Source: a bacterium (lineage in GTDB: Bacteria; Patescibacteriota; Minisyncoccia; Phycocordibacterales; UBA918). From it: a stretch of 64,000 nt of DNA. The notes under the pieces were generated by a model. The model had not been told where the DNA came from and made no database searches. It was given only the letters and a program-made list of their open reading frames with translations. Shown piece after piece: positions 33,269 through 61,659 of this stretch (the stretch's first letter is position 1; each line of letters starts with the position of its first letter). Location: NCBI GenBank assembly GCA_043728975.1, contig JAYTMA010000167.1:4939-68938 (forward strand), read 5' to 3'. A program made the translations under genes and the position numbers.

Positions 33269-33430
33269 GTGGATATTGTAAATATTTCTGTAGAACTGGG
33301 CCAATTAAAAGCTCGCATCGAGCTTATGAAAGCAGCTCTTGAACAATTGCTCCAGCATGAAGATCCCAAAGTGCGTAAGATTGCAAAAGCAGCTTTGTTT
33401 CAAGCGGGATTTAGCGAAGACGTTACTTAA
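33269..33430 (+). CDS. small helical protein (53 aa, GTG start), possible recombination directionality factor
   Basis: Translated by hand: VDIVNISVELGQLKARIELMKAALEQLLQHEDPKVRKIAKAALFQAGFSEDVT. Lies directly after the integrase. Confidence 0.2.
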   Translation: MDIVNISVELGQLKARIELMKAALEQLLQHEDPKVRKIAKAALFQAGFSEDVT

Positions 33431-33504
33431 GAGCCTTGTAGAGGGGGGAGTTGTAAACTGTCCAGCAGCCATTGGCTTTGTGAACGTGAATGTATTGGCC
33501 CAGT

Positions 33505-34455
33505 TCATTTCAGCTTCCCGAAAATAAATATACGCTCACGATTCTGGGCAAGTCCGAAGTGCTTTGAGTTTACAAGTTCGAAGTCTACTTCATATCCAAG
33601 CTGGGACAGGCCTTTAAGAATCTCAACTATGGTTTTACCTCCATCATGATTCAACAGGCCCTTTACGTTCTCAGCGAGGAAGTACTTCGGCTTATGCTTC
33701 TGGAGAATATCGAAGCAGTGGTAAATCATTTGACCCCGGCCCTTCTCGTCTTCGAACCCCTGTCTAAGTCCAGCAATACTAAAAGACTGGCACGGGAATC
33801 CGAAAGTCAGGAGATCGAAATCTGGGACGTCAGTACGTTCAATGAACTTAGTTACGTCATTAAAGTTGGGAGTGTTCGGATGGTTGAAGCGAATTACATC
33901 TGAAGCGTACTTATCAAATTCGCATGTCCCAGTTAACTTGAAACGCTCTGGAAGATTTAGCTCAGTTCCGAGTATTCCCGAGAACAAAGACTGAACTCTA
34001 ACCTGTTCATCGCCAGGAATTAGTGACGTAAGTATTGTCGCGGCTACAGGAGAGCTGACTCCGTTACCACATTGTTTGTATCTTTGGGTGTTAGACATGT
34101 TGTAGATTGTCCCATCTTCTTTTCTTCCATACGCTGTATGATTGTCTGGGTAGCCTTGAAGTCTTTCACATTCTACTGGAGTGAGCTTACGAATTCTAAT
34201 CGTACCAGCTTCATCTAGAACCATGCGCTGACCATTACCTGGGGCGGGATTACCTACATTAGTGGTGAGAGTACAGGCAATTTCATCAGTCTTAACATTG
34301 TCATTATAAGCATCGTACACCGCTACGAAATTTTGAGAACTCATGTTTGCTCCTCCATCACCTGTACTTATTGTATTTGCTTCTCCATCCACTTTTCCCC
34401 TAACATCAATATGATTCTCACGAGTGCTTTTAGAATATGCTACTGTAGTTTTCAA
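33505..34455 (-). CDS. DNA (cytosine-5) methyltransferase, circularly permuted catalytic core (316 aa: TRD/motifs IX-X, then I, IV, VI, VIII)
   Basis: ECERLQGYPD, GNGVSSPVA (motif X), LFSGILG (I), FPCQSFS (IV), ENVKGL (VI), QNRERIFIFG (VIII). The protein ends 3 aa after motif VIII. TTG start. The frame stays open upstream to 34506. Confidence 0.8.
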   Translation of the reverse strand: MKTTVAYSKSTRENHIDVRGKVDGEANTISTGDGGANMSSQNFVAVYDAYNDNVKTDEIACTLTTNVGNPAPGNGQRMVLDEAGTIRIRKLTPVECERLQGYPDNHTAYGRKEDGTIYNMSNTQRYKQCGNGVSSPVAATILTSLIPGDEQVRVQSLFSGILGTELNLPERFKLTGTCEFDKYASDVIRFNHPNTPNFNDVTKFIERTDVPDFDLLTFGFPCQSFSIAGLRQGFEDEKGRGQMIYHCFDILQKHKPKYFLAENVKGLLNHDGGKTIVEILKGLSQLGYEVDFELVNSKHFGLAQNRERIFIFGKLK

Positions 34456-34457
34456 TT

Positions 34458-34466
34458 CCCCCCCCC
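34458..34466 (-). repeat. homopolymer tract (G9 on the coding strand)
   Basis: Nine C on the plus strand, at the junction between methyltransferase reading frames. Confidence 0.8.
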
Positions 34467-34668
34467 TTCTAATACGAGCTGACGTCGAGACTTCAGAGTA
34501 GTGTTAGTGCCTTTGGCGTAATTACTATCTAAACAATAGCTAACGTCTTTTCCTAATTTCATTAATCATCCTCATTAATATGGGCGTTCTTATCTGCTTC
34601 AGTTGTTAAAGCAGGAGAAATCCCATTGCTGTCGTAGACTCTGCCTTTTTGCTTGTAGAGACTTTGTC

Positions 34669-34678
34669 GCCCCCCCCC
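34669..34678 (-). repeat. homopolymer tract (about G10 on the coding strand)
   Basis: About 10 C on the plus strand, 30 nt downstream of the stop of the 81-aa methyltransferase fragment. Confidence 0.75.
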
Positions 34679-34704
34679 ATACGCTGGTTCGCCGTAGAGG
34701 AGTT

Positions 34705-34950
34705 TTATATCTTTCCCAGCTTCATGCTCACTAGGCGTTCTTGAAAATTCGCTTCTTTAACAATCCTCTCAACAACCTCATTTCTAAGGTAATACTTCTC
34801 ATCAACCTCTTCTTCGAGGATGTCCTTTAGCTTAGGAGTAGGAAGTTCGTTCGTAAGGGGGATGTTGAATTGGCCTAGTTGTATTTCTGGTAGTTCTTTC
34901 TTGATCAGGGCTTTAAGTCGAGTAATAGCTTTTGATTGTGTTATGCTCAT
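34705..34950 (-). CDS. methyltransferase N-terminal fragment (81 aa, the post-motif-VIII segment of a canonical C5-MTase)
   Basis: FNIPLTNELPTPKLKDILEEEVDEKYYL matches the F-x-F-P ... L-x-DIL ... VDEKYYLS segment that normally follows motif VIII. Ends at TAA before the G10 tract. Confidence 0.5.
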   Translation of the reverse strand: MSITQSKAITRLKALIKKELPEIQLGQFNIPLTNELPTPKLKDILEEEVDEKYYLRNEVVERIVKEANFQERLVSMKLGKI

Positions 34951-35008
34951 TGCACAACATTAACACTTGTACCAATTTCCCAAAAGACCTGTGCAAACCT
35001 TGCGTAGG

Positions 35009-35479
35009 CTAGTAACTTCCCACAATGCGTAATTGCTTCCAGCAGATTGTAGTGTGACCGTGAACTGTATAACCAGCTTCTCCGTATTCTCTCCAGCAAG
35101 TACTTCGATAGTCGTACTGAATGCTTATGTAATCTTTGATCTCTTTCATGAGCTGTGCTCTAGTTGTCCCAATCTTATACTTAACCTCTTTAACCTGGGA
35201 CAGACCAGAGGGAATTGAAACAGTAACTGCACAATAGTCTTCTGTCCGCCACTCTACTTCTAAAACTGGAACAGCGTTTTCGTACTCCCGGCTTATGAGA
35301 GCTTCAGCTTTGCGGAAGGCTTGATGGCAGGATTGCCCAAGCTGTCGGTAGAGAATGCGAGAGCCATTGTACACTCGAACGGATTGTTCGCCAGACAAGA
35401 GCCCTTGCACCCAAGATGGGCCAGGAGAAGCACAGGATGAAATGAACAGTAATAATGGTAGTATGGTTAATCTTTTCAT
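35009..35479 (-). CDS. lipoprotein (156 aa)
   Basis: Signal plus lipobox LLLFISSCAS. Confidence 0.55.
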   Translation of the reverse strand: MKRLTILPLLLFISSCASPGPSWVQGLLSGEQSVRVYNGSRILYRQLGQSCHQAFRKAEALISREYENAVPVLEVEWRTEDYCAVTVSIPSGLSQVKEVKYKIGTTRAQLMKEIKDYISIQYDYRSTCWREYGEAGYTVHGHTTICWKQLRIVGSY

Positions 35480-35550
35480 AAGAGCTATTACGGCAGTGCG
35501 TTATTTAAAGTTTAATGGTAGAATGCCGAAGAGAGTAAAAAAGGAGCTTT

Positions 35551-36189
35551 ATGAAATTCTTGTTACTTTTGGTTCTTGTAAGCTGTGCTTCTGTTCCTAG
35601 ACAGGATAAGAGCTTGGTTAAAGTAGGAATTACCTCAATAAAGGTTGTTGATAGTACCTCTAGAAATGTCTTTGTAAGCACTGGCATGAACGAGGTAGAG
35701 AACGATAACCAGCTCTTCAAAATCTACGCCAGCGTCGTTTATGAAGCTCTCAAGGGGCGAGGATATGTCCCAGTTAGTTCTAAGGATAAAGCTAATTTAA
35801 TCGTATATTTAAGCTATGAGGTTTCAGATCCTGAAAACTACACACATACTCAGAGTGTTCCAGTTTACGGCGGTAATTCCACCTCAACAGTTACAAACCA
35901 ATTTGGGCAACAGATCGGAACGATAAGAACTCAAAACTATGGGCCAACAGGTTATAGGGAAGTTAAAAGCTCTTATTCAATATACTCAAAGAAAATCACT
36001 CTCCACGCCTATGAAGGTGAGCAAATGGTGTGGGCAACTAGCTTAGCTCATCATAGCAGCTCAAGCACTGACTTGTTCAAGCTCTTCCCTTACATGGTGC
36101 AAGCTGGAGCGCCTTATTTTGATAAGCACTTAGACGATGCTCCAATTGTAGAGGTTGTTAAAATGAGAGCCCCAGCTTCAGTTCCATAG
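35551..36189 (+). CDS. lipoprotein (212 aa)
   Basis: Signal plus lipobox LVLVSCAS. gaagagagtaaaaaaggag RBS. Divergent from the upstream lipoprotein. Confidence 0.6.
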   Translation: MKFLLLLVLVSCASVPRQDKSLVKVGITSIKVVDSTSRNVFVSTGMNEVENDNQLFKIYASVVYEALKGRGYVPVSSKDKANLIVYLSYEVSDPENYTHTQSVPVYGGNSTSTVTNQFGQQIGTIRTQNYGPTGYREVKSSYSIYSKKITLHAYEGEQMVWATSLAHHSSSSTDLFKLFPYMVQAGAPYFDKHLDDAPIVEVVKMRAPASVP

Positions 36190-37399: not shown

Positions 37400-37578
37400 G
37401 ATTCAGTCTCGGAGATGAGCTTATTGTAACTGAGACTGACTTGAGCTTTTGCGAAAAGGGTCAAGTGTTTATAGTAGAGCGCATGGATAAGTATCATTAC
37501 GAAGACAGAGATGGAACTATCATCGCATCAGACTATGAAGTTGAGCTTCTTTCAGGAAAGCAGTTTATTCTTAGTTGA
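37396..37578 (+). CDS. small protein with family-like N-terminus but no SPLYQALK tail (60 aa)
   Basis: MRFSLGDELIV. ATGA-coupled. Confidence 0.4.
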   Translation: MRFSLGDELIVTETDLSFCEKGQVFIVERMDKYHYEDRDGTIIASDYEVELLSGKQFILS

Positions 37579-37654
37579 AATTTGAAACATGACCTCACTT
37601 GATATTTAATGCTGGTTCCGACCAAGGAATCAAAACTAAAAACAAGGAGGCCAC

Positions 37655-37876
37655 ATGGCGAAGTTAGTAAACAAGGGGAAAAGAGTCAACAAGAAGGTAA
37701 ATAGGAAAGGAGAGGATGGCCAAACGGTGAAATTTGTTCGACACTCCGCTGGCAGTAAGTTCATCTACGTCGAGAATCAAATTAAACACATCGACAAAAG
37801 AGAGCTTGAAATAGTACAAGAACTTACAGATGTGCTTACGGAAGAAAAAATAAAAGAGCTAAAAAATGCGTCTTAA
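37655..37876 (+). CDS. basic hypothetical protein (73 aa)
   Basis: Strong RBS aacaaggaggccacATG. Confidence 0.55.
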   Translation: MAKLVNKGKRVNKKVNRKGEDGQTVKFVRHSAGSKFIYVENQIKHIDKRELEIVQELTDVLTEEKIKELKNAS

Positions 37877-38090
37877 AAATGAAGAAGCCTGTATTTCAAT
37901 CAACCCAAGCCTTTCTGGCCACATGTTAAAGGTGAAACAAGTTTTCGAAATTAGTAAACTCTATCCTCATCTTGACTTGCTCGACATTAGAGATGCCGTT
38001 TTCAACTTTCCTACTGATGCCCAATCAAACATTGAATCAATCTTTAGAAAGACAGGAAAATTTAAATCAAATAGCTCGTCACTTCAATAA
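37866..38090 (+). CDS. hypothetical protein (74 aa)
   Basis: Track ORF. 11-nt overlap with the upstream gene. Confidence 0.4.
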   Translation: MRLKNEEACISINPSLSGHMLKVKQVFEISKLYPHLDLLDIRDAVFNFPTDAQSNIESIFRKTGKFKSNSSSLQ

Positions 38091-38102
38091 TACGATAGCC
38101 AA

Positions 38103-39155
38103 TCAAATTTCATCATTAAAAAACTTTCTTACCAAAATATGATCCATTAGCAACTGATTACAATCCTTGTCGTGCATCTCTGTTGTCATGCTCAACAGCT
38201 CTGCATGTTGCACTATTGTCTCGGCCAATCGCATTTTTTTAAATTTATCAACCTCGGCATCAGTAAGCCCCTTACACGTAGAAATAATTTTAAGAGTCAG
38301 AAAGTCCTCCTGTAGACCTTTTAGACCTCCAAAAATTATATCGTTATTATCAGGATCAAATCCGTAGCCTAAAATGATGAGCCTCTCTGCATTCTGCAAA
38401 ATTGATCTCAGGACTTTATACTCATCCTTATGCTTCCTATCGATAAAATTAATTCCCTCAGAAGCTAAAATTAAATCATCAAATCCAGGAACTGTATCAT
38501 CTCGAAGAGCATTTAAAACGGCATTTACCCGTTCTAGATTTCCGTACACATGAAAGATAGGAAGATCATTTCTGACAATATGTTTTGCCCTGCTCGCTAA
38601 GTCTCGGTCAATTTCTTGATGTGAATAGTAATTAGTAAAACAATCTTCGAGATGAAGGTCGTAATTAAAGGTTATAAAGCAATCCGGTTCTTCTAAGTAT
38701 CCTGAATAATCAAGCCCAATTCGTTTATTTAAATAGTTTAAGATCCATGGCTTACAATCCACGGAAGGTTCAAAAATTCCGTCGACAGTATTCCCTGCCG
38801 TTCTGGCGCAATTAATTAAAACATAACTGACCAAGAATTTTGCGATATTTAGATAGCGTGGATTTTTTGCGACAAAAGAGTCGATTGACTGGGCACCTGA
38901 TTTCTTTAGCTTCTCAACGAACGATTTTAATTCAATTGAAAACTCACCTAGATGATGTTGCAAATCATCGTCTTTGCATTCATCAATATTTTTCCGGAGC
39001 TGATTGAAGATGTTATCAGTACCATTTTCTAAATTGATCAGATTAATTTTAAGCTGACTACCCGTCGGATAGCCATACGCAAGACTTGAGCCAGCTCCGA
39101 GGAGATAAACATCTTTAAACTTATGATTCTTCCATTTTTCAAGTTTCTCAATCAT
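38103..39155 (-). CDS. SIR2_2-family (Thoeris ThsA / DSR-like) putative NAD+-hydrolase protein (350 aa)
   Basis: N-terminal VYLLGAGSSLAYGYPTGSQL (GAGxS...G.P). CFITFNYDLHLED (TTNYD motif). LPIFHVYGNL (catalytic His). LIILGYGFDPDNNDI (GYSf-D). Lone minus-strand gene with aggaac RBS. Confidence 0.7.
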   Translation of the reverse strand: MIEKLEKWKNHKFKDVYLLGAGSSLAYGYPTGSQLKINLINLENGTDNIFNQLRKNIDECKDDDLQHHLGEFSIELKSFVEKLKKSGAQSIDSFVAKNPRYLNIAKFLVSYVLINCARTAGNTVDGIFEPSVDCKPWILNYLNKRIGLDYSGYLEEPDCFITFNYDLHLEDCFTNYYSHQEIDRDLASRAKHIVRNDLPIFHVYGNLERVNAVLNALRDDTVPGFDDLILASEGINFIDRKHKDEYKVLRSILQNAERLIILGYGFDPDNNDIIFGGLKGLQEDFLTLKIISTCKGLTDAEVDKFKKMRLAETIVQHAELLSMTTEMHDKDCNQLLMDHILVRKFFNDEI

Positions 39156-39249
39156 TATATAGTTCCTAAGTACGTATTACTTTCAATTCCATCTCTCTAC
39201 TGTTGTTAGTGGTAAAGAGAACTTTCTGGCCCCTTTATCAGGCGCTTCT

Positions 39250-39477
39250 ATGAAAGTTGGAGATCGCGTGATTGCATTGAGAGCTTTGTGGAGTGGAGAC
39301 ATCGGCCCTAAGGGCATTGTTCCATTTTCTAGAGGTATAATTGTTGAGCGTCTAAAGTTAGGTGTTTTTAAAGATGTTCAATTCGACGATGGAAAAAAAG
39401 CTAATGGCTGTACACCTGGAGCGCACATTGAACTAGAAGCTGTTTACGATTCCCCACTTTACCAAGCCTTACTCTAG
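39250..39477 (+). CDS. SPLYQALK-tail family small protein (75 aa)
   Basis: MKVGDRVIAL ... DSPLYQALL. Confidence 0.6.
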   Translation: MKVGDRVIALRALWSGDIGPKGIVPFSRGIIVERLKLGVFKDVQFDDGKKANGCTPGAHIELEAVYDSPLYQALL

Positions 39478-40721: not shown

Positions 40722-41159
40722 ATGGAAGACAAATGCTCTTGCGGCAATTCACAAATGTTCGGTAGCTGGATGTGCAAAACTTGCCACGCTTCTTACATGA
40801 AAACAGGCGTTGACCCTTCTGAGCTTCCTAAGTTTGAATCAGTTTTCAATAAGTCCACAACTGAGCATCTGAATGAGTTGCTCGGACTAGAAGTTGAAGA
40901 GCTTGAAACAACTGCTAAACCAAAACGTTATAACAACGGAAGTATCGAGGTTTGGGATGCTATCCATCAACTACAGTTCGATTACTTTCAAGGAGCAGTT
41001 ACTAAGTACATAGCACGTTACCATGACAAAAATGGGCCAGAAGATCTCGTGAAAGCAATCAACTACTGCATCAAGATGATCTCAATCGAAACAGGCATTG
41101 ACTATTACGAATTACATAAACTTACCCCCGAACAACTGGGACAAAGGATAAAAAAATGA
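40722..41159 (+). CDS. phage protein with N-terminal zinc ribbon (DUF3310-like C-terminal part, 145 aa)
   Basis: CSCGNSQMFGSWMCKTCH. C-terminal GSIEVWDAIHQLQFDYFQGAVTKYIARYHDKNG. Confidence 0.4.
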   Translation: MEDKCSCGNSQMFGSWMCKTCHASYMKTGVDPSELPKFESVFNKSTTEHLNELLGLEVEELETTAKPKRYNNGSIEVWDAIHQLQFDYFQGAVTKYIARYHDKNGPEDLVKAINYCIKMISIETGIDYYELHKLTPEQLGQRIKK

Positions 41160-43369: not shown

Positions 43370-43757
43370 GACTGGTAAAATCCGCAACATGATTAAAGGC
43401 TACGCAAGACGACTCTCTCAGAGTTGGCCTCCTAAAGTTGCGGCTAAAGATGCTGCTAAAGTTGCTCCAGCTCTTCACAAATGCGCTAAGTGCGGCTCTC
43501 TAAACTACGAAGGCGATTCTCAAAAGAACTTCGACAAGTACGTTCAGCAATTCCCAAATGACACTGTTAACTTCACAGGTATTGAAATGGATCATATTTC
43601 TCCCGTGATTGAACTATCAGGCTGGACAAACTGGGACAACTACTTCGACAGCTTATTCTGCCCACAAGAAAACTTCAGAGCACTTTGCAATAAATGCCAT
43701 GCTCATAAATCTTCGACCGAGAACACAATTAGATTCTCAAACAAAAGGAAAAAATGA
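43365..43757 (+). CDS. HNH endonuclease (130 aa)
   Basis: CAKCGS...IEMDHISPV...NFRALCNKCHAHKS. The start overlaps the promoter -10, so the true start may be the downstream Met at 43389. Confidence 0.65.
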   Translation: MMTGKIRNMIKGYARRLSQSWPPKVAAKDAAKVAPALHKCAKCGSLNYEGDSQKNFDKYVQQFPNDTVNFTGIEMDHISPVIELSGWTNWDNYFDSLFCPQENFRALCNKCHAHKSSTENTIRFSNKRKK

Positions 43758-44578
43758 AAACCACTATCTTCTTATTCATCATGGGAATACTCTTGTGCTC
43801 GCCACTTGCAGTTTCAACCAACAATGAAACAATCACACTCACTCCAGATAATCACATTCTATTCAGCGGCGTTGTAACAGATGCTTCTGTAACTGTTAAC
43901 CAACTAAAACTGGGCCAGCTCTCAGCAAGACTTCCACGTAATGCTACAATATACCTCGTTCTTGATACTCCGGGCGGATCTGTTCCAGCCGGTAACTTAT
44001 TCATTGACTTCGCAAAGTCATTGCCCCAGAAGATCAAGCCTATTTCAATCTTTGCAGCTTCTATGGGCTATCACATGTTCCAGTCTTTTGACGAAAGAAT
44101 CATGCAAAGCTCTTCAACGATCATGTCTCACAGAGTTTCATTGAGCGGCTTGAGCGGACAAGTTCCTGGTGAGCTAGTTACGCGCTTGAATTCAATCATC
44201 TCAATTTCAAATCAAATGGACGATGTAGCTTCTAAGAGAGTTGGACTCTCACGTAAGGATTATCAAGATCTTATTCATGACGAGCTTTGGTTAAGTGGTT
44301 CAGACGCTGTTGCAACTGGACACGCTGATAAACTTGCTAAGATTAGCTGCTCTGAAGAACTTATTAATGGAACTCGCATTGAGCAAGTCGATACTTTGTT
44401 TGGCCCACTTGATGTTAAGTTCTCTGCTTGCCCTTTAATTAGCGGATACATTTCATTCGAGATTTCAAAAGTAGCTAATACGTCAGGAGTTGTTTATCAA
44501 ACTCCGAAAGACAATGGCGAAGTTGCCAAGGCGATTAAGTTTGCTAAACGCAAAGTTGTAATGGGAGTGGTTTGGTAA
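43754..44578 (+). CDS. secreted ClpP/S49-fold serine peptidase-like protein (274 aa)
   Basis: Signal peptide IFLFIMGILLCSPLAVS. YLVLDTPGGSVPAGN and AASMGYHMF (Ser nucleophile context). Confidence 0.5.
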   Translation: MKTTIFLFIMGILLCSPLAVSTNNETITLTPDNHILFSGVVTDASVTVNQLKLGQLSARLPRNATIYLVLDTPGGSVPAGNLFIDFAKSLPQKIKPISIFAASMGYHMFQSFDERIMQSSSTIMSHRVSLSGLSGQVPGELVTRLNSIISISNQMDDVASKRVGLSRKDYQDLIHDELWLSGSDAVATGHADKLAKISCSEELINGTRIEQVDTLFGPLDVKFSACPLISGYISFEISKVANTSGVVYQTPKDNGEVAKAIKFAKRKVVMGVVW

Positions 44579-45517: not shown

Positions 45518-45789
45518 AACAGAAACTCTAGAACTTTAACAATTCCTGCCACTACTGTAACAATTCCTGCCACAGCGCCGAACATTCCTAGAATTCCTTT
45601 GAACTTTGTGTGGAACTCTGTAAGAGGCTTAACATCTGCTCTGAGCATTTCAATATTTTCCTCATTAAGATCGGACCTATATATATGGTGCTTTAACTGA
45701 ACAGCTTGTTCACCGAGAGTTTTATCCACACTTTGAAGCTTATCGTCCATCGCTTCAAGCTTTACGTATATCCTGTCTAATTCTTTCAT
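45514..45789 (-). CDS. tail-anchored coiled-coil membrane protein, holin/spanin-like (91 aa)
   Basis: C-terminal TM ILGMFGAVAGIVTVVAGIVKVL. Confidence 0.45.
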   Translation of the reverse strand: MKELDRIYVKLEAMDDKLQSVDKTLGEQAVQLKHHIYRSDLNEENIEMLRADVKPLTEFHTKFKGILGMFGAVAGIVTVVAGIVKVLEFLF

Positions 45790-48395
45790 TACATTCCCTT
45801 CTTACCTTTCTGCATAGCTTGGCGAAATGCCGGTTGTTGGTATAATCCGAAGAGCACTGCTGATCGAGTTCTGTCATCTGCTTGAGCTGCTTTTTCAAGT
45901 GGAGCTACAAACGATGCAGTTTTTTCATCACCGCTAAATAACTGGGCCAATTCTTGTATTTGTTCAGGACGCTGTTCAACGAAGCTCTTGAACTCTTCAT
46001 GAGGCTTTTCCGCTTTAGGAGCGCGAGCATTCATGTTCTGTTCCATTCTAGCACGAGCATCATTAGAACGCTCTGTACCGAACTTATCAAGGCTTTCAAC
46101 TGCTGGGGCAGTGTAACCCTTGGCTCCTGCTGCAACAGCGGCTAGAGCTGGTTTAACGCTGTTTATATCACCCGGAGCGTCCCAGTATTCTTGAGAGAGC
46201 TTAATCTCATCAGTAACATCGTCATAGGCTTTATTAGCTTCTACAGCGCCTTGTACAGCGTCTGTGAGTGGAAGAGGGTTCAGAGTCTCAGCTCCTCCAG
46301 CGAGGATGGCTTGAGAAGGGCTAAGCTCGCCAGAGTCGGCAGCGTTTGCAGCAGCCATACCGCCAGCTAATCCGCCAACGAGAGGAAGTCCATATTTGCC
46401 AAGCGCTTTAATCCCATTTCCAAGCTTTGAGCTTTTATAAAGAGCTAGAGCTTCTTGCATCTTAGTTCCGCCCATTTTCCCGATAATACCAGGAGCGCGT
46501 GACATTTCACCTTTAGCGATTGAGTTAACGTCAAAAGCATTCAGGGCTTTGCCTTCTTTTAAGCGCCCCACTTCGCCTTTAAGAGCTGATACATCTGCTT
46601 TCTTGAGCAAGTCGTCTACAGTTGAACCTTGGGGCAAATGACCTTGTTTCATTGCATTTTGTAGAGCTTCTTCTAAATAGGCTCTGCTTGCAACGTTCTT
46701 GTCAGGGTTGAGAAGAGTGGCGTTGATTTTGCTTCTGCCAGAATCATCGAGAGTAACTCTAGCAAGCTCTTTATTGTGGCGAATGCCAAGCTTATCGAAT
46801 AGCTCTTCGGATTTGAAAGACTCCGCAGCTTTGTCCATTCCAGTAGCATATTCTGGAGAAACATCGCGAAGCTTTGAACGAAGCTCTTTAGCTATTTCAG
46901 CATTGAACTTACCAACAGTGTTTGCTTTACCGTCTGGGACGTTATCTCTGATTTCCTGGAGTTTTTGGTCCAGTCTTATAGGAGATACTTCAGCAGAGTG
47001 CTCAACATCGCTTATAGCGTCTTGTAAGGAGTTAGCATAGTCTTGCCCGAGAACTCGGTTGTTGAGTTCTGGAGCAACGTCTCTGATTTTCTTTGGAGTG
47101 TTCTTAATCGAATCAAACTCTTCAGCAGCGGCAGTTTTAACAGTTTCAACGCGCTTCTTCATCTTCTCTTCAAGCTTCTGCTTTTGGGCAAGTAAACTTT
47201 CCATTTTCTCTTTCTGCTTCAGATTCTTCATCTGGGCCGATTTTTCATCAGAGAGTATTTTGTTAAAGATGAGCTGATCTTTGCGAACATCAAGCTTAGC
47301 TTTAGCGTTTGAGCTGTTCACGTTCTCGAGGGCAAGAGATTTCTCTTTGCTATTAGCTAAGCTTTCTTGAAACTTGAGCTTCTTCTCTTCAATCTTCTGA
47401 ATTTCTGTTTGAATTTTCTCTTGAGCTTCAGCAGCTTTCTCGTCCAAACGTTCCAGTTTTTTGTTATCGCGCTTAATGTCGTGATCATTTATAATAGCTT
47501 GTCTTTCATAATCAGGCTGTTGACCGCGAACTTCTGATAGTTCATTGAGCTTGTTGTTCTTATCAGCTCTATTATCAATGTTGAATGTAAGATCTTCTTT
47601 AGTGTTAAGTACTGGCTGGTTAGTTTTGCCCGAAGCTTGAGCAAGTTTAGCTTCAAGTTCCTGAAGCTTTTGCGCTTGTTGTTTAGCTGCAAAGTCGGCA
47701 ACAATTGGCTTCTTTAAATCTGGAGCAGCGGGGGTATTTAATTGGCCCAGTTTGTTTTTATACTGAGCGTCTTTAATGCTTTGGTTAATTGCTAAACGCT
47801 CGTCCTGGAACGGCTGGTTCATTTGTTCGTCAATGCTCATCATCTGCTTAGCATCTTCTGCTTGAGCAGGGGCAATCTCGTCGAGCTTAGAGCCGAAGAT
47901 TTGAGCTTGTTTAGAAGGGTCGATTGGGGAGCTTAGTTTAGGGTCAAGTGCAGGCTTAGAAATGGTTTGATAGTATCCTTCGATTGGCATGTTTGGAAGC
48001 TTCTCGAGGGATTTTCTCGCAGAAGCAGCAGCGTCCATTCCACCTTGACGGTTCTTTTCCCCGAGAGTTCTGAATTGCTCCAGTATGTTCTCAAGAGGGG
48101 AAACAGTTTTATAAACATCGCGGTTTTGGTCTATCATCTTGATTTGAGTAGCGTCCAAATCTCCGAGGTTATTGTGAACTAAGTTACCAACTTTCTCGAG
48201 GCCCTTGTTCAAAAGCACACCAGTACCAGCACCAGCAGTGCCTCCAATTACTCCACGAGTAGCATCTCCAATAGCATCTTCCTCAACTGGAGCATGATCA
48301 GGATGCGGGACATCCTCAAACAGCGAGTCGTCAGCTTCTGGAGCTGCTTGGTATGGGACATCTTCGAATAGAGAGTCGTCGAGTTCTTTAGACAT
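45789..48395 (-). CDS. large coiled-coil virion protein, tape-measure-like (868 aa)
   Basis: Long K/E/Q-rich heptad regions. G/A-rich C-terminal part. Confidence 0.5.
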   Translation of the reverse strand: MSKELDDSLFEDVPYQAAPEADDSLFEDVPHPDHAPVEEDAIGDATRGVIGGTAGAGTGVLLNKGLEKVGNLVHNNLGDLDATQIKMIDQNRDVYKTVSPLENILEQFRTLGEKNRQGGMDAAASARKSLEKLPNMPIEGYYQTISKPALDPKLSSPIDPSKQAQIFGSKLDEIAPAQAEDAKQMMSIDEQMNQPFQDERLAINQSIKDAQYKNKLGQLNTPAAPDLKKPIVADFAAKQQAQKLQELEAKLAQASGKTNQPVLNTKEDLTFNIDNRADKNNKLNELSEVRGQQPDYERQAIINDHDIKRDNKKLERLDEKAAEAQEKIQTEIQKIEEKKLKFQESLANSKEKSLALENVNSSNAKAKLDVRKDQLIFNKILSDEKSAQMKNLKQKEKMESLLAQKQKLEEKMKKRVETVKTAAAEEFDSIKNTPKKIRDVAPELNNRVLGQDYANSLQDAISDVEHSAEVSPIRLDQKLQEIRDNVPDGKANTVGKFNAEIAKELRSKLRDVSPEYATGMDKAAESFKSEELFDKLGIRHNKELARVTLDDSGRSKINATLLNPDKNVASRAYLEEALQNAMKQGHLPQGSTVDDLLKKADVSALKGEVGRLKEGKALNAFDVNSIAKGEMSRAPGIIGKMGGTKMQEALALYKSSKLGNGIKALGKYGLPLVGGLAGGMAAANAADSGELSPSQAILAGGAETLNPLPLTDAVQGAVEANKAYDDVTDEIKLSQEYWDAPGDINSVKPALAAVAAGAKGYTAPAVESLDKFGTERSNDARARMEQNMNARAPKAEKPHEEFKSFVEQRPEQIQELAQLFSGDEKTASFVAPLEKAAQADDRTRSAVLFGLYQQPAFRQAMQKGKKGM

Positions 48396-49630
48396 TATTG
48401 CGCCAATTGGTATTTACCGACTGAAGGATTCCATTTATATGTTTTGCCGTTTCTTTCAACCACTTCTTGTCCATTCGGGGCAGAAGAAGTTTCTCCCTTG
48501 AGCTGTTCGATAGTTGCTCTGTTTTCATAGTTCTTAACATTTCTACCAGAACGCTTAATTGAGTCTAGAACTCGAACTCGAGAGTTTCTAAGCTCGTCTT
48601 GGAAGTTTGCAAGTTTAGCGGCAAACATTTCATCAGAATCTGTTTCTTTAGGAAGCTGAGCTTTAATTCGTTCCATCTCTGCATCAGCAATTGTAGCACC
48701 TGAAATTGCTTGTCCATACTTGGAAGTGAGCATTTCTAACTGGGCCGTCATAGCAGTTCTATTTCCAGAAGATTGCCCCAAGTATCTCTTAACCTTTTCA
48801 ACTCGTCCTGAGATTGGCCCAGTTGAAAAATCTTTCATTCCATCAAGTTTGCTTAAGCTATCGAGCGTAGATTCAATGCCCTCAATTTGCGACTGTTGTT
48901 TAGTTGTAATCTCGTCTTGCTCTTCGGCTTTGTTTATCAAAGTTGCACCACGAGCAACAGCGCCTTTGTTTGTTCTATCAACGGAATCGTTAGTGCGTTT
49001 TTCGCCCATTTTTGCGTATAAGTTAACTTTGTCAATTTCGAGTAAGTCTCTTTGAGAAAGCTGACCGTCTTGAAGGTCTTTGTATTGCTTAAGGAGGTTT
49101 GAGTAATTGTCTTTGAAGTTCCTGTCAACGCCGCCTACCATGTCCTTAACATCAATTTTATGAAACTGGGCCGGAGTAACAGAAGCTTTTGTGTTCATAG
49201 CTTGAGCACCTGCTACCACTGTGCCAATGTTATTTCCAAGAGCAGCCATCATTTCAGCTTTCATTTGGCGAGAACGGGCATCTTCTTGAGCTGCTTTATA
49301 ATCATCTCTTAGCGCTTGTAGACTAGACTTGAATTCACCTTCTCGTACTTCATTAGACTCGTCGTTAGTATATTTCGAAGGATCGAGTTGAGGAGCTGTC
49401 CAGTTGGTGTCTCTCTGTTCCATGGTAGGAGTAATCGCAGACTGTACATCATAGCCCTCATAAATTGGAGGAGCTTCAGGAACTGGAGCAGGGGTAGTAG
49501 CAGTGGCAGGAGGAGGCGTAAGTATAACTGGAGCAGCTTCTTTAACTTGCTCTTCTTCGAGGGGGGAGAATTTTTTGAATATGTCCATGAAGCTCATATT
49601 ATGTCCTTCTTGGTCCAGTATATAGATCAT
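48395..49630 (-). CDS. virion structural protein (411 aa)
   Basis: Proline-rich N-terminus followed by coiled coil. Coupled to flanking genes. Confidence 0.5.
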   Translation of the reverse strand: MIYILDQEGHNMSFMDIFKKFSPLEEEQVKEAAPVILTPPPATATTPAPVPEAPPIYEGYDVQSAITPTMEQRDTNWTAPQLDPSKYTNDESNEVREGEFKSSLQALRDDYKAAQEDARSRQMKAEMMAALGNNIGTVVAGAQAMNTKASVTPAQFHKIDVKDMVGGVDRNFKDNYSNLLKQYKDLQDGQLSQRDLLEIDKVNLYAKMGEKRTNDSVDRTNKGAVARGATLINKAEEQDEITTKQQSQIEGIESTLDSLSKLDGMKDFSTGPISGRVEKVKRYLGQSSGNRTAMTAQLEMLTSKYGQAISGATIADAEMERIKAQLPKETDSDEMFAAKLANFQDELRNSRVRVLDSIKRSGRNVKNYENRATIEQLKGETSSAPNGQEVVERNGKTYKWNPSVGKYQLAQ

Positions 49631-50582
49631 TAGATGCGTTTGTATTAGCGTACTTCTTATTCACTTGATCCTCGGCTGTCATTTTAGCCGCACCTTGAGC
49701 AGCATTGCTCATTCCCGCAGTTGCCATTCCCATACCAGCATTCAAAATAGCTCCATTCATTGCAGCTTGTCCTTGAGCAGCAGCTTGTCCTTGTTGAGCA
49801 TGGTTATTAGCTAAATTAGTTGTAGCTCCCGACACTCCGCCAGCTTTTGCAAACTCGTTCTGGAACTTCTGTTGAACTAAACCTTTGTTGTACATTTCTT
49901 CTTGATTTCTATTTGCTGTTCCAGCGTTTGCAATTGTCTGTCTACTCGCTAAGTTCTGAGCATTAACGTCTTGTCTGTTTTGAGCGTTGAATCTGTTAAT
50001 AGCATCTCCAGCATTTGCAACTTGAGCTTTCTGAGCAAAGTCATTTTGTCCCATTGTTGTTGCAAGGTTTGCTTTTTGTGAAAGCGCTTCTCTACGAGCG
50101 GCAGAAGCTTGAGCTGCAATTTGCATAGCTTGCTCTTGTCCGCGATTAGCTTGATTCTGACCAGCGTTTAACGAAGCTATGAGCGCATTACCACTGTTGA
50201 GTGTACCACGAGCTGCTGCATCTTGTAAGACTGAAGCATTCTGTGCTTGGGCTGCTCCAGAGTTTTGTCTCATCAGAGAGTTCATTGCTGCTTTATCTTC
50301 AGCTCCAAGGCCTTGCTCAGAAAGTCCTGTGATTTCTTCCAGAGCTTTCACTTGCGCTTGCTTCATGCGCGGATCAACGCTCACTCCAGCAAGTTGAGAT
50401 TCTTGTAACTGCTCAGCTTGTAACAGGCCTTGAAGTTCTGGATCTTGAAGAGCTATTCTTTGAGCTTCAACAGTAGGGACTCCAACAGCTTCGAGCCTTG
50501 CAACAGCATCTTTCATTAGCTGGTTAGATTTCTTCATGTCCGCTTTACCAGCGTTTCCGCCGAGGAGATCTGAAAGAGCCAT
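49599..50582 (-). CDS. Q/N/A-rich low-complexity virion protein (327 aa)
   Basis: Strong compositional bias (about 45% Q+A+N). Continuous with the structural operon. Confidence 0.5.
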   Translation of the reverse strand: MALSDLLGGNAGKADMKKSNQLMKDAVARLEAVGVPTVEAQRIALQDPELQGLLQAEQLQESQLAGVSVDPRMKQAQVKALEEITGLSEQGLGAEDKAAMNSLMRQNSGAAQAQNASVLQDAAARGTLNSGNALIASLNAGQNQANRGQEQAMQIAAQASAARREALSQKANLATTMGQNDFAQKAQVANAGDAINRFNAQNRQDVNAQNLASRQTIANAGTANRNQEEMYNKGLVQQKFQNEFAKAGGVSGATTNLANNHAQQGQAAAQGQAAMNGAILNAGMGMATAGMSNAAQGAAKMTAEDQVNKKYANTNASNDLYTGPRRT

Positions 50583-52519: not shown

Positions 52520-52553
52520 GATTTTTAGGAACCTCTAAAGAGTAATGGTGTTT

Positions 52554-52958
52554 TTAGGCTATAAATTCGATACTAATTCGCACTTTTTTATTCACGGGAA
52601 GGCCAAATATACGGTTTATTTTAACCACTCCGTTACCTACGTAACTACAATCTAGGTAAGGGGCTGAAACTACGTTATCCCCACCTGAGAGTGACTGAAC
52701 GTTGATGATGGTTTTGCCTGAGTAACTGGATAGGCCGGTGTTGATTTGCCCCACTCCTTTAGGAATTCCGGCAGCATCTACGGTTAAATCAAGGACGATC
52801 AGAGAGCGGGCCAGGTTATCGTAATTGATCTTTTTGCGGCTTAGTTCGATGATTTCGTCAGCGAATGAGTTGAAGACAGTGGCAATTTTACCAACTGTTT
52901 CCCGATCTTCTTCTGGAAAGTCTTCTACAATAATTCTGCGAGCGTTAGAGAGTTGCAT
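52554..52958 (-). CDS. virion structural protein (134 aa)
   Basis: Track ORF within the structural operon. Confidence 0.5.
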   Translation of the reverse strand: MQLSNARRIIVEDFPEEDRETVGKIATVFNSFADEIIELSRKKINYDNLARSLIVLDLTVDAAGIPKGVGQINTGLSSYSGKTIINVQSLSGGDNVVSAPYLDCSYVGNGVVKINRIFGLPVNKKVRISIEFIA

Positions 52959-52997
52959 GGTTTTTTTATCCTTACGAATAGCTTTTTAAAAATAAGC

Positions 52998-56615: not shown

Positions 56616-56621
56616 GTATTA

Positions 56622-57587: not shown

Positions 57588-57602
57588 TTAGGATTGCCCT
57601 TT

Positions 57603-57917
57603 TTATTCTTCGTCAGACTCTTCTTCACAAGCTTCACAGCCCTCGTCTTCACAAGCGGGGCAAGAATACTCTTCATCTTCTTCTTCGCCCTCTTCTTCCT
57701 CTTCAGCGTCTAAGCCGAACTTTTCGCCTAGCTTGAGCTTTAGAAGTTCTTGAGCTTTAGAAAGCTTCTTTGGAGCTTCTTCTTCTTTAGAGGGGAGTTT
57801 CGAGAGCTTCTTTTTCTTTAATGCTTCCCCTATAGTCGGTTCGTGCATTTCAGAGCTTTTACCTTTCGATAATTTCTTGAGCATCTCTAGTCTTGCTTCT
57901 TTCATTTTTGAGTTCAT
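57603..57917 (-). CDS. highly acidic CxxC-motif protein (104 aa)
   Basis: C-terminal EEEEEGEEEDEEYSCPACEDEGCEACEEESDEE. Confidence 0.5.
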   Translation of the reverse strand: MNSKMKEARLEMLKKLSKGKSSEMHEPTIGEALKKKKLSKLPSKEEEAPKKLSKAQELLKLKLGEKFGLDAEEEEEGEEEDEEYSCPACEDEGCEACEEESDEE

Positions 57918-58007
57918 GTGATTGTTTCTCCTGATACTAATGGTGATTTGAGGGGGTAAAACAGGTGCTGAAAGGGTAAAATACTTGTATTAATCTAAGT
58001 GCTTGAT

Positions 58008-58900: not shown

Positions 58901-58904
58901 AAAT

Positions 58905-59651: not shown

Positions 59652-59657
59652 AAAGTC

Positions 59658-60269: not shown

Positions 60270-60276
60270 AATTCTT

Positions 60277-61446: not shown

Positions 61447-61642
61447 TTTTCTTCGCCTTTGGTGTAACAGGGGCTGGCGTTTCTTCCAGCTCCCGCTTAA
61501 TCTTTTCTTCTAAGCTTTTAAGTAAAATGAAAGCGGTATGAATTTCGATGATTGCATTACCATCAAGTCCGTCCCACTTTGCTTTGGAAAGCGCGGCGAA
61601 TATCTTTTCGACTGTTGTTAAATCTCTATTATCAAAGCTCAT
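61433..61642 (-). CDS. small coiled-coil protein (69 aa)
   Basis: Track ORF overlapping its neighbours. Confidence 0.4.
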   Translation of the reverse strand: MSFDNRDLTTVEKIFAALSKAKWDGLDGNAIIEIHTAFILLKSLEEKIKRELEETPAPVTPKAKKNASK

Positions 61643-61659
61643 ATATTCCCATTCTGTTG

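What the first reader, a model, noticed from the sequence alone, without database searches (positions are those of the whole stretch)
38103..39155. Phage-encoded standalone SIR2_2 (Thoeris ThsA/DSR-like) NADase-type gene on the opposite strand
This is the only minus-strand gene inside 45 kb of plus-strand genes, a classic moron arrangement with its own RBS and promoter region. The 350-aa product carries the SIR2_2 signature: GAGxS-x-G-P near the N-terminus, an FNYD (TTNYD-like) motif, a catalytic His in IFHVYG, and a C-terminal GYGFD motif. SIR2_2 domains are the NAD+-depleting effectors of Thoeris, DSR1/2, SIR2-HerA and pAgo-SIR2 defence systems. A short standalone phage copy with no TIR, HerA or sensor partner in the window is unusual. 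It could exclude superinfecting phages or act as a decoy or antagonist of host SIR2-based defence. The two small basic proteins at 37655-38090 just downstream on the other strand are candidate regulators or partners.
Basis: partly seen in the sequence, partly recalled or inferred. Interest (0 to 1): 0.75.

Follow-up and report, generated by a model that had tools for sequence, protein, structure and literature searches.

The report
Phage-borne standalone SIR2-like NAD enzyme gene
A roughly 89-kb uncultured phage carries an intact single-domain SIR2-type NAD-consuming enzyme gene, apparently picked up from bacterial mobile defence islands; it belongs to a very large, uncharacterised family of standalone SIR2 proteins rather than to Thoeris, DSR or SIR2-HerA, which makes it moderately interesting but not extraordinary.

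Summary

- It is not the only minus-strand gene: a C5 DNA methyltransferase (33505-34455) and a lipoprotein gene (35009-35479) share its strand.
- It is not ThsA/DSR-like in membership: no SLOG, Macro, TIR, HerA, pAgo or sensor domain, and only marginal matches to those models.
- The "catalytic His" (H202) is invariant but lies two residues upstream of the canonical His slot, which holds Tyr204. This H-x-[Y/H]-G variant resembles the H-I-N-G of the active NADase EfAvs5.

The family has more than 5,600 50%-identity clusters, nearly all 300-410 aa, with no conserved partner. The closest bacterial relatives (39-46% identity) lie in integrase/Mrr/Fic or ICE/RM islands. Distant members recur in other phages, often as lone opposite-strand inserts.

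Most likely it is a self-contained NAD-degrading module acquired horizontally and used in phage-phage or phage-host conflict. Its biochemistry and trigger remain untested.

The parts
38103..39155 (-). Gene for a 350-aa single-domain SIR2_2/'SIRim'-type protein. It has Rossmann core strands at aa 15-19, 159-162, 200-202, 258-262, 289-293 and 325-328, a large helical insert at about aa 32-155, and no Zn-ribbon.
39084..39098 (-). Codons for G20-A21-G22-S23-S24, the NAD-binding glycine-rich loop after strand beta1.
   Evidence: G20 and G22 invariant, A21 55/56 and S24 54/56 in A2. Aligns to GAGVS of KomC.
38658..38669 (-). Codons for F163-N164-Y165-D166 (TTNYD-type motif). N164 is the probable catalytic/NAD-ribose-contacting Asn.
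   Evidence: N164, Y165 and D166 invariant in 56/56. Aligns to TTNYD of KomC and EfAvs5. The aligned EfAvs5 residue N141 abolishes defence when mutated (PMC11897194).
38541..38552 (-). Codons for H202-V203-Y204-G205, a non-canonical H-x-[Y/H]-G version of the sirtuin x-H-G catalytic motif.
   Evidence: H202 56/56, G205 56/56; position 204 is Y in 48 and H in 8. KomC catalytic H146 and EfAvs5 N180 align to Y204, and EfAvs5 H178 aligns to H202.
38346..38369 (-). Codons for G263-Y-G265-F-D267-P-D269-N270, the GYGFD loop after strand beta4. It is equivalent to the GYSLSD loop whose Asp is NADase-specific in KomC.
   Evidence: G263, G265 and N270 invariant; D267 in 28/56 of the broad family and 7/7 of the close subclade. 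KomC D194 aligns to P268, one residue off D267 (PMC13454610).
39164..39167 (-). AGGA Shine-Dalgarno motif, 8 nt upstream of the ATG at 39155.
   Evidence: Sequence. The motif class is enriched upstream of this phage's ORFs (45% against 9% background).
39156..39249 (.). 94-bp divergent intergenic spacer between the SIR2 start and the plus-strand 75-aa gene (39250-39477). This is where a promoter for the SIR2 gene would presumably lie, but none was recognised.
   Evidence: ORF map. The promoter scan is not above chance.

Best explanation
Shown:
- The ORF is an intact, expressed-looking gene for a single-domain SIR2_2 ('immune-type sirtuin') enzyme.
- It has the NAD-binding GAGxS loop, the invariant Asn-Tyr-Asp of the TTNYD-type motif and an invariant His. 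It lacks the Zn-ribbon needed for protein deacylation.
- It belongs to a very large, uncharacterised family of standalone 300-410-aa SIR2 proteins with no conserved partner gene.
- Its close subclade sits in bacterial mobile defence islands and is low-GC wherever it occurs.

Inferred:
- The phage acquired the gene horizontally from such an island, as an independently transcribed opposite-strand insert in its early/replication region.
- The protein consumes NAD+, most likely as an NAD+ glycohydrolase. Like other SIR2_2 enzymes (ThsA, KomC, Avs5, FAM118B, SIR2-HerA), it is probably held inactive until it self-assembles.
- Its family-specific helical insert (with invariant D92 and W137) and its C-terminal subdomain may serve as the built-in sensor or assembly surface.
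- In the phage it most plausibly acts as a self-contained conflict module: it collapses NAD+ in a cell that a competing phage or mobile element also infects, or otherwise manipulates host NAD+ during infection.

My estimates: SIR2_2-type enzyme about 0.95; NAD+-consuming activity about 0.7; NADase rather than transferase about 0.55; a role in exclusion or competition about 0.35.
For: Identity:
- Pfam SIR2_2 above its cut-off.
- 55 of 56 family members hit a generic PADLOC SIR2 model.
- The profile hits EfAvs5 (E=2e-6) and KomC (E=3e-4) in the PDB.

Active-site conservation: invariant G20/G22, N164-Y165-D166, H202, G205, G263/G265 and N270 over 56 sequences at 20-47% identity.

No Zn module. 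Per PMC12700824 this is typical of SIR2_2 NADases and not of deacylases.

Standalone nature:
- 5,689 single-domain representatives at E<=1e-30.
- The commonest neighbour cluster occurs in only 6 of 87 loci, and those neighbours are housekeeping genes.

Defence-island origin of the subclade:
- P0004 and P0005: integrase, Mrr restriction enzyme, SIR2, Fic TA pair.
- P0006: in a T4SS/ICE region beside an MmeI-type RM.

Mobility:
- The gene's GC is 4-10 points below its surroundings in every locus, including the phage.
- Distant members occur in bona fide phage contigs, three times as lone opposite-strand genes.

Assembly-gated activation is the rule for solved SIR2_2 NADases (PMC13454610, PMC11897194, PMC12700824).
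Against: - No biochemical or genetic data exist for any member of this family.
- The canonical catalytic-His slot holds Tyr204. NADase activity therefore depends on H202 or on an Avs5-like variant chemistry, which is untested.
- The NADase-associated Asp (KomC D194) is offset by one residue and is only 50% conserved family-wide.
- Many family members in Planctomycetota sit in conserved housekeeping synteny (RsfS-SIR2-ArgRS, KdsB-SIR2-PyrG). That argues that the family as a whole is not purely a defence family.
- No integrase or repressor was seen in the roughly 68 kb of the phage that I could annotate. If the phage is strictly lytic, classical lysogen-protecting exclusion does not apply.
- No SIR2-less relative of this phage was found, so the 'accessory gene' status rests on strand and GC alone.
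- A constitutively active NADase would harm the phage itself, and no inhibitor or antitoxin is identifiable.
Confidence: 0.45

Rival explanations
1. The protein is an ADP-ribosyltransferase rather than a hydrolase. It would use NAD+ to modify a host or competitor protein or nucleic acid as part of host takeover, in the manner of T4 Alt/ModA/ModB, SirTM, or the DNA-ADP-ribosylating role Iyer et al. proposed for HerA-linked sirtuins.
For: - Sirtuin chemistry permits transfer to many acceptors (PMC9503650).
- The canonical catalytic His is replaced by Tyr, so the chemistry may differ from ThsA-like hydrolysis.
- The gene sits among early, replication and nucleotide-metabolism genes.
- No regulator is needed if the enzyme has a specific target rather than draining NAD+.
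Against: - No Macro, ARG or NADAR eraser gene lies nearby, unlike known sirtuin transferase pairs (PMC9503650).
- The closest bacterial homologues are in defence islands.
Confidence: 0.2
2. It is a counter-defence gene. The phage enzyme would interfere with host NAD-based immunity, for example by destroying NAD-derived signals, by removing the NAD+ substrate of TIR-type signal synthases early in infection, or by poisoning host SIR2 filaments as a decoy subunit.
For: - The gene is carried by a phage with no recognisable lysogeny genes in the annotated part.
- SIR2_2 enzymes act through homo- or hetero-filaments (PMC12700824, PMC13454610), which makes a dominant-negative 'decoy' conceivable.
Against: - All catalytic-type residues are strictly conserved with the bacterial homologues, which a pure decoy would not need.
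- No NAD-salvage (NARP-type) genes accompany it, so NAD+ removal would also starve the phage.
- I found no precedent in the literature searched.
Confidence: 0.1
3. It is a non-immune regulatory or metabolic enzyme, an auxiliary gene that reflects a housekeeping function of the wider family, for example a link to translation or nucleotide metabolism.
For: In Planctomycetota, family members are embedded in conserved housekeeping synteny across several orders: RsfS-SIR2-ArgRS and KdsB-SIR2-PyrG. In another lineage the gene directly follows lepA.
Against: - Those members are only 22-26% identical to the phage protein.
- The phage's own subclade lies in integrase/RM/TA or ICE contexts.
- The fold is closer to the immune SIR2s than to classical sirtuins.
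Confidence: 0.1
4. It works as a multi-gene system with the adjacent small basic proteins (37655-38090), acting as regulators, antitoxins or sensors.
For: The two ORFs are basic (pI 9.7 and 8.9). They end 12 bp from the SIR2 stop, in convergent orientation.
Against: - They are on the opposite strand, within the plus-strand gene run.
- They have no Pfam or PHROG hit.
- No neighbour of any of 87 non-redundant family loci is homologous to them.
- Partners differ even within the close subclade: Mrr in L114/L115, 275-aa plus 113-aa proteins in L003, none in L007 or L009.
Confidence: 0.05

Closest known systems
SIR2 subunit of SIR2-HerA (Nezha / Gao_19) systems
   Different: There is no HerA ATPase anywhere near the gene, either in the phage or in any family locus examined. 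Sequence identity is only 14-15%. SIR2-HerA activity depends on the HerA complex.
KomC (SIR2 NADase of the Kongming KomABC system)
   Different: KomC needs KomB, a dITP sensor, and KomA. No ITPase-like or deaminase genes are adjacent here. KomC's catalytic H146 aligns to Tyr204 and its D194 to Pro268.
EfAvs5 (SIR2-STAND, AVAST type 5)
   Same: It is the best sequence-profile hit in the PDB (E=2e-6). It shares the unusual H-x-x-G spacing (L-H-I-N-G against I-H-V-Y-G), with a non-His residue in the canonical His slot, yet it is an active NADase. N141 (essential) aligns with N164.
   Different: Avs5 is an 850-aa protein with a STAND NTPase and a C-terminal sensor. The phage protein is the SIR2 domain alone.
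ThsA (Thoeris effector) and DSR1/DSR2
   Different: There is no SLOG or Macro signal-binding domain and no ThsB/TIR gene. The roughly 700-aa DSR sensor region is absent. Matches to the ThsA HMM are marginal (E=0.0036).
AbiH (lactococcal single-gene abortive infection protein, about 346 aa, sirtuin-like)
   Same: It is the closest analogue in architecture: one gene, about 350 aa, a SIR2-like fold, carried on integrative conjugative elements, with an anti-phage phenotype (PMC13064643).
   Different: It is not a detectable sequence relative. The phage protein gives no Pfam AbiH hit, and only 2 of 56 family members match weakly (E>=2e-4). AbiH's mechanism is itself unknown.
Human FAM118B/FAM118A
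   Different: It is vertebrate-specific, needs a paralogue pair for activity and has a canonical His. No sequence-level relationship was detected here.
Previously catalogued phage sirtuins (Iyer et al. 2022)
   Same: They are phage-encoded sirtuin-superfamily genes, rare and mostly found in caudoviruses (PMC9503650).
   Different: Those fall into an RNA-repair-linked clade (with RNA ligase, 2H, Nudix or HAD), SirTM-Macro pairs, or SIR2-HerA pairs. None of these partners occurs here, and BFVD holds no structural match.

Membership tests
Pfam SIR2_2 (PF13289) / 'SIRim' immune-type sirtuin superfamily | Scores above the curated Pfam gathering threshold | tested here: met
   32.5 bits against a cut-off of 24.5, E=1.1e-7, aa 159-271. 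32 of 56 family members also pass E<=0.01.
Pfam SIR2_2 (PF13289) / 'SIRim' immune-type sirtuin superfamily | Rossmann-type SIR2 fold with a helical small subdomain and no Zn-binding ribbon | tested here: met
Pfam SIR2_2 (PF13289) / 'SIRim' immune-type sirtuin superfamily | GAGxS NAD-binding loop and the catalytic Asn of the TTNYD motif | tested here: met
   G20-A-G22-S-S24 and F163-N164-Y165-D166 are invariant or nearly so in 56 sequences. They align to the same motifs in KomC and EfAvs5.
Pfam SIR2_2 (PF13289) / 'SIRim' immune-type sirtuin superfamily | Catalytic His immediately preceding the conserved Gly (x-H-G) | tested here: inconclusive
   The slot before G205 is Tyr204 (Y in 48/56, H in 8/56). 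An invariant His (H202) lies two residues upstream, as in EfAvs5's H178-I-N180-G, and that enzyme is an active NADase. The tools give no model coordinates, so I could not test by superposition whether H202 reaches the nicotinamide ribose.
Pfam SIR2_2 (PF13289) / 'SIRim' immune-type sirtuin superfamily | NADase-associated Asp in the G-Y-S-x-x-D loop (KomC D194) | tested here: inconclusive
   The aligned position is Pro268. Asp is present at 267 and 269. D267 is conserved 7/7 in the subclade but only 28/56 family-wide.
Pfam SIR2_2 (PF13289) / 'SIRim' immune-type sirtuin superfamily | NAD+ hydrolysis activity | not testable with these tools
   This requires an enzyme assay.
Thoeris (ThsA + ThsB) | ThsA has a C-terminal SLOG (type I) or Macro (type II) signal-binding domain fused to the SIR2 domain | tested here: not met
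   The SIR2 fold spans the whole 350 aa. The only Pfam hit is SIR2_2. The ThsA HMM match is marginal (E=0.0036) and confined to the SIR2 part.
Thoeris (ThsA + ThsB) | An adjacent TIR-domain ThsB gene | tested here: not met
   Neighbours within +/-5 kb carry no TIR domain. No TIR appears in the precomputed Pfam annotation of about 68 kb of the phage.
DSR1 / DSR2 | A protein of about 1,000 aa with an N-terminal SIR2 domain and a large C-terminal sensor that binds phage proteins | tested here: not met
   The protein is 350 aa with no extra domain. PADLOC gives no DSR hit.
SIR2-HerA (Nezha) | A co-operonic HerA-type ATPase/helicase | tested here: not met
   The adjacent genes encode 73-75-aa proteins and a 266-aa exonuclease. 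No HerA-like neighbour cluster occurs in 87 family loci.
SPARSA (short pAgo-SIR2) | SIR2-APAZ fusion plus a short pAgo gene | tested here: not met
   There is no APAZ region or pAgo gene. PADLOC Aga_SIR2 models hit 20 of 56 family members only weakly (best E=1.3e-5) and do not hit the window protein.
Kongming (KomABC) | KomC paired with KomB (an inactive ITPase-like dITP sensor) and KomA | tested here: not met
   No such genes are adjacent. KomC similarity is limited to the shared SIR2 motifs (E=3e-4).
AbiH (single-gene Abi) | Match to the Pfam AbiH model (PF14253) or the PADLOC AbiH model | tested here: not met
   The window protein gives no hit at E<=10. Only 2 of 56 family members hit, at E>=2.3e-4. 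A direct profile-profile comparison was not possible because no AbiH sequences were available.
AbiH (single-gene Abi) | A single gene suffices for abortive infection | not testable with these tools
   This needs plaque and efficiency-of-centre-of-infection assays.
Phage 'moron' (independently acquired accessory gene) | The gene is present or absent between conserved flanks in related phages | tested here: inconclusive
   No close relatives of this phage were found. The five IMG/VR contigs sharing the exonuclease (43-52% identity) show no synteny and no SIR2 gene, and there is no INPHARED DNA match.
Phage 'moron' (independently acquired accessory gene) | Atypical composition and orientation, with its own expression signals | tested here: met
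   It is the lowest-GC kilobase of the window, lies on the opposite strand to its immediate neighbours and has an SD motif. A promoter and terminator were not demonstrated.

The most novel reading that the evidence does not exclude
A probably virulent 89-kb phage has captured a bacterial abortive-infection-type SIR2 enzyme and uses it offensively, as a self-sufficient single-domain sensor-effector. On this reading the helical insert is the trigger-binding or filament-forming module, and the active site is a non-canonical H-x-Y-G site that performs NAD+ chemistry different from ThsA-type hydrolysis. The enzyme would either eliminate cells co-infected by rival phages or disable host NAD-dependent immunity. 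That would define a new, very widespread class of one-gene SIR2 conflict modules (more than 5,600 sequence clusters) shared by bacteria, conjugative elements and phages.
Probability: 0.15. Interest if true: 0.75.

Novelty: new variant of a known kind. Interest (0 to 1): 0.45.

Why it matters
SIR2 NADases are among the most common effectors of bacterial immunity. Every characterised one except AbiH, whose mechanism is unknown, depends on a fused or co-encoded sensor. This gene points to a very large, unstudied family of SIR2 proteins that have no partner and carry a variant active-site motif. The family moves between chromosomes, conjugative elements and phages. If a member proves to be a self-contained, trigger-gated NADase, it would show how a minimal SIR2 domain senses infection. 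It would also give an example of a phage carrying a 'suicide' effector for its own purposes. If the family turns out to be a housekeeping regulator, as the conserved Planctomycetota synteny hints, that would caution against reading every SIR2_2 domain as an immune gene.

Tried and rejected
1. Near-identical or related phages. INPHARED DNA and protein searches, and a PLSDB protein search, found nothing.
2. PHROGs and NCBIfam scans of the protein gave no hits.
3. I first took the family to be rare, with only 37 word-indexed hits. I rejected this after the exhaustive HMM search returned 11,932 hits.
4. Conserved-partner search by clustering the +/-3 neighbours in 87 non-redundant loci. The only recurrent neighbours were housekeeping genes (H+-PPase, RsfS, ArgRS, KdsB, PyrG, LepA), and none hit PADLOC.
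5. Subclade-specific scans of JGI metagenome contigs and IMG/VR found nothing.
6. A presence/absence test of the moron claim, using the flanking exonuclease gene. The related contigs were too divergent to be informative.
7. Sigma-70 promoter and terminator scan: not above the shuffle expectation.
8. BFVD fold search for viral analogues: nothing significant.
9. A link to the Kongming system through the nearby DUF3310/'nucleotide kinase' gene (40722-41159). I considered this and rejected it as coincidence, because there is no KomA or KomB.
10. tRNA scan: none found.
11. A look-up of the RNR protein failed, probably because the start codon was called differently.
12. I could not obtain model coordinates, so the H202-versus-Y204 question could not be settled by superposition.
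Full report
OBSERVATION. The window holds an ATG-initiated ORF at 38103..39155 on the minus strand that encodes 350 aa. An AGGA Shine-Dalgarno motif sits 8 nt upstream of the start. It is of a type found before 45 of 100 ORFs of this phage, against 9% of random positions. The gene is the lowest-GC kilobase of the whole 64-kb window: 36.3% against a mean of 41.5%, and only 1.3% of equal-sized windows are as low.

Two parts of the observation do not hold. First, it is not the only minus-strand gene in the plus-strand block. ORF 33505..34455 (-) is a C-5 cytosine DNA methyltransferase (Pfam E=1.5e-61; PHROG DNA methyltransferase E=1.9e-70). Independent gene calls on an identical ENA contig place four genes on the SIR2 strand between 33.5 and 35.5 kb, including a 156-aa lipoprotein-like gene at 35009..35479. 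Second, no promoter can be claimed. Sigma-70-like matches are at the shuffle expectation (6 found, 6.1 expected), and none lies in the 94-bp upstream spacer.

WHAT THE REPLICON IS. The window is phage DNA. It encodes:
- a family-A DNA polymerase, a ribonucleotide reductase, a DnaB-like helicase and an internal virion protein;
- a polymerase-exonuclease subunit;
- dUTPase, a Holliday-junction resolvase, Clp-type proteases, ERF and PD-(D/E)XK recombination genes, and an M15 peptidase (precomputed Pfam).

Pieces of a 90,721-bp ENA contig map to the window at 100% identity. The contig's two ends overlap by 1,450 bp in window coordinates (37565-39014). That implies a complete, circularly permuted genome of about 89.3 kb. 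No integrase, repressor, Macro, HerA, TIR, RNA-ligase or NAD-salvage gene appears in the roughly 68 kb for which I have annotation. About 22 kb could not be examined. The phage has no relatives in INPHARED. IMG/VR contigs that share its exonuclease (43-52% identity) show no synteny with it.

WHAT THE PROTEIN IS. Pfam SIR2_2 (PF13289) is matched above its curated cut-off (32.5 against 24.5 bits). PADLOC gives only marginal generic-SIR2 and ThsA hits, and PHROGs and NCBIfam give none. An AlphaFold2 model built on 28 homologues is confident (pLDDT 86.7, pTM 0.88). The SIR2 Rossmann core spans the entire chain, with a large helical insert at about aa 32-155.

A NON-CANONICAL ACTIVE SITE. Across 56 relatives at 20-47% identity the following are invariant: G20, G22, D92, W137, N164, Y165, D166, H202, G205, G263, G265 and N270. 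Profile alignments to the two solved proteins detectable by sequence, EfAvs5 (E=2e-6) and KomC (E=3e-4), line up the GAGxS loop, the TTNYD motif and the conserved Gly. N164 aligns with EfAvs5 N141, whose mutation abolishes defence (PMC11897194).

The residue just before the conserved Gly is the canonical catalytic-His slot. It holds H146 in KomC, and H146A abolishes both activity and defence (PMC13454610). In the phage protein that slot is Tyr204. Family-wide it is Tyr in 48 of 56 members and His in 8. The family's invariant His (H202) lies two residues upstream. EfAvs5 has the same layout (H178-I-N180-G). Its authors note Asn in place of the usual His at residue 180, yet the enzyme is an active NADase.

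The NADase-associated Asp of KomC (D194) aligns to Pro268. Asp is present at 267 and 269, and D267 is conserved 7/7 in the close subclade but only 28/56 family-wide. Strong conservation indicates an enzyme. I infer, but have not shown, that it consumes NAD+ and acts as a hydrolase.

THE FAMILY AND ITS CONTEXTS. The word-indexed search found only 37 relatives. That was a sensitivity artefact. An exhaustive profile search of 1.84 billion representatives found 11,932 hits at E<=1e-3 and 5,689 at E<=1e-30. All of the 150 best listed are proteins of 299-439 aa matched over essentially their whole length. Of 56 sampled members, 55 hit a generic PADLOC 'SIR2' model, 32 hit Pfam SIR2_2, 3 hit ThsA weakly and 2 hit AbiH weakly. 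So this is a distinct, unnamed branch of the SIR2_2 superfamily.

I fetched 80 genomic and 12 viral loci and clustered the three genes on each side over 87 non-redundant loci. The commonest neighbour cluster occurs in just 6 loci. Those recurrent neighbours are housekeeping genes: H+-pyrophosphatase, RsfS and ArgRS in one set, KdsB and CTP synthase in another, and LepA in a third lineage. None hits PADLOC. The family is therefore genuinely standalone, and in Planctomycetota it even looks vertically inherited within core synteny.

The phage protein's own subclade (36-59% identity; 7 clusters) tells a different story:
- P0004 and P0005 lie in an integrase-bearing island, 11-15 bp downstream of an Mrr-family restriction enzyme and next to a Fic toxin-antitoxin pair.
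- P0006 is the last gene of a three-gene operon inside a T4SS/conjugative region, beside an MmeI-type RM system.
- P0003 and P0007 are chromosomal and apparently solitary.

In every one of these loci the SIR2 gene is 4-10 GC points below its surroundings, just as in the phage. This fits a mobile gene lineage. No partner is shared even within the subclade, and nothing resembling the phage's two small basic ORFs (pI 9.7 and 8.9) occurs beside any homologue.

OTHER PHAGES. The close subclade is absent from IMG/VR and from the JGI metagenome contigs scanned. BFVD contains no significant structural match. Distant family members (23-30% identity) do occur on 12 IMG/VR contigs. For four of these I confirmed phage context: large terminase, portal, Mu-like transposition protein, primase and helicase. 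In three of them (L016, L022, L026) the gene is again a lone opposite-strand gene within a co-oriented run. Capture of this family by phages is thus recurrent, though it is not described in the literature I could search. The Iyer et al. survey lists only RNA-repair-linked sirtuins, SirTM-Macro pairs and SIR2-HerA pairs in viruses (PMC9503650).

HOW IT MOST LIKELY WORKS. Shown: an intact SIR2_2 enzyme gene, standalone, compositionally foreign, whose nearest relatives are in mobile defence islands. Inferred: it consumes NAD+, most likely by hydrolysis, and is gated by self-assembly. Self-assembly is the common theme of solved SIR2_2 NADases:
- ThsA, KomBC and Avs5 form filaments;
- SIR2-HerA forms dodecamers;

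The family-specific helical insert, with invariant D92 and W137, is the obvious candidate for a sensing or assembly surface. The most plausible benefit to the phage is conflict with co-infecting phages or mobile elements, or manipulation of host NAD+.

Rivals:
- an ADP-ribosyltransferase role (a variant active site, but low similarity to SirTM and no eraser gene);
- a counter-defence or decoy role (conceivable, but the fully conserved catalytic residues and the lack of NAD-salvage genes argue against it);
- a non-immune role mirroring the Planctomycetota members;
- a partnership with the small basic ORFs (no support).

COMPARISON AND MEMBERSHIP. The protein is a member of the SIR2_2 superfamily: the Pfam threshold, the fold, and the GAGxS and Asn motifs are all met, while the canonical His and the NADase Asp are inconclusive. 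It is not a member of Thoeris, DSR, SIR2-HerA, SPARSA, Kongming or Avs5, because each defining partner or fused domain was looked for and is absent. AbiH is the closest known analogue in architecture, being a single ICE-borne sirtuin-like Abi gene of about 346 aa (PMC13064643). Sequence membership is not met, and AbiH's mechanism is unknown. FAM118B is the best-characterised standalone SIR2_2 protein and offers the filament-gating model.

VERDICT. The core domain call is right and the gene is real. The 'unique minus-strand moron', 'ThsA/DSR-like', 'catalytic His' and 'partner' elements are wrong, overstated or unsupported. I rate this a new variant of a known kind: a partner-less, variant-motif SIR2_2 enzyme carried by a novel phage. 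It is of moderate interest (0.45). Its main value is as an entry point to a very large uncharacterised standalone SIR2 family.

Noticed in passing
window 33305-36189: There is a small opposite-strand accessory cluster upstream of the SIR2 gene: a C-5 cytosine DNA methyltransferase (33505-34455, -), two or three small minus-strand ORFs, and a lipoprotein-like gene (35009-35479, -; signal/lipobox LLLFISSC). A divergent plus-strand DUF4136-like lipoprotein follows (35551-36189). These could be anti-restriction and superinfection-exclusion genes, so this part of the genome may be a general accessory or host-interaction region.
   Followed up: partly
window 11670-12884: The phage encodes a protein with a Pfam Ice_binding (PF11999/DUF3494) domain (12057-12884), directly after an SLT lytic transglycosylase (11670-12029). 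It could be a genuine ice-binding protein or a beta-helical cell-envelope-acting protein.
   Followed up: no
window 40722-41159: A DUF3310 protein matches PHROG 'nucleotide kinase' families (T7 gp1.7-like) and lies 1.5 kb from the SIR2 gene. Phage nucleotide kinases are the trigger of the Kongming system, whose KomC effector is among the closest solved relatives of the SIR2 protein. This is probably coincidence, since no KomA or KomB is present.
   Followed up: partly
window 37565-39014 (ends of ENA contig ERZ28573557 scaffold_61): The two ends of the 90,721-bp ENA contig overlap by 1,450 bp when mapped on the window. This implies a complete, circularly permuted or terminally redundant genome of about 89.3 kb. 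The assembler's break point falls inside the SIR2 gene region.
   Followed up: yes
loci L047, L066, L076, L088, L091 (RsfS-SIR2-ArgRS) and L046, L048, L054, L078, L080, L090 (KdsB-SIR2-PyrG): In Planctomycetota (Pirellulales, Sedimentisphaerales, Phycisphaerae, Brocadiia), members of the same standalone SIR2 family sit in conserved synteny between housekeeping genes. In another lineage the gene directly follows lepA (L014/L015). This suggests part of the family is vertically inherited and may have a non-defence role.
   Followed up: partly
loci L114 2024-4014 and L115 122-2116: In the closest context-bearing bacterial homologues, an Mrr-family (type IV) restriction endonuclease gene is followed 11-15 bp later by the SIR2 gene. 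A Fic/antitoxin pair and an integrase lie nearby. This may be a two-gene Mrr-SIR2 defence module.
   Followed up: no
locus L003 8839-11059: The 39%-identical homologue P0006 is the third gene of a tight operon (275 aa, 113 aa, 352 aa, with overlapping stop and start codons). The operon lies inside a T4SS/conjugative region next to an MmeI-type RM and a radical-SAM gene. The two upstream proteins have no Pfam or PADLOC hit.
   Followed up: partly
loci L096 4129-6864 and L083 3470-8590: L096 carries two divergent paralogous family genes head-to-head, which recalls the FAM118A/FAM118B paralogue partnership. L083 carries two identical copies 4.2 kb apart, either a duplication or an assembly repeat.
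   Followed up: no
window 8265-10877 and 14893-15432 / 43754-44578: A MoxR-like AAA+ ATPase (8265-9461) is paired with a DUF2201/VWA-like protein (9570-10877). The phage also carries two separate Clp-protease-like genes. Neither pairing is common as phage cargo, and neither was examined further.
   Followed up: no
window 45789-64000: Almost none of the structural-module proteins (ORFs of up to 1,205 aa) have Pfam or PHROG matches. The exceptions are an internal-virion-protein hit and an M15 peptidase. The phage lineage is therefore very poorly represented in reference databases.
   Followed up: partly
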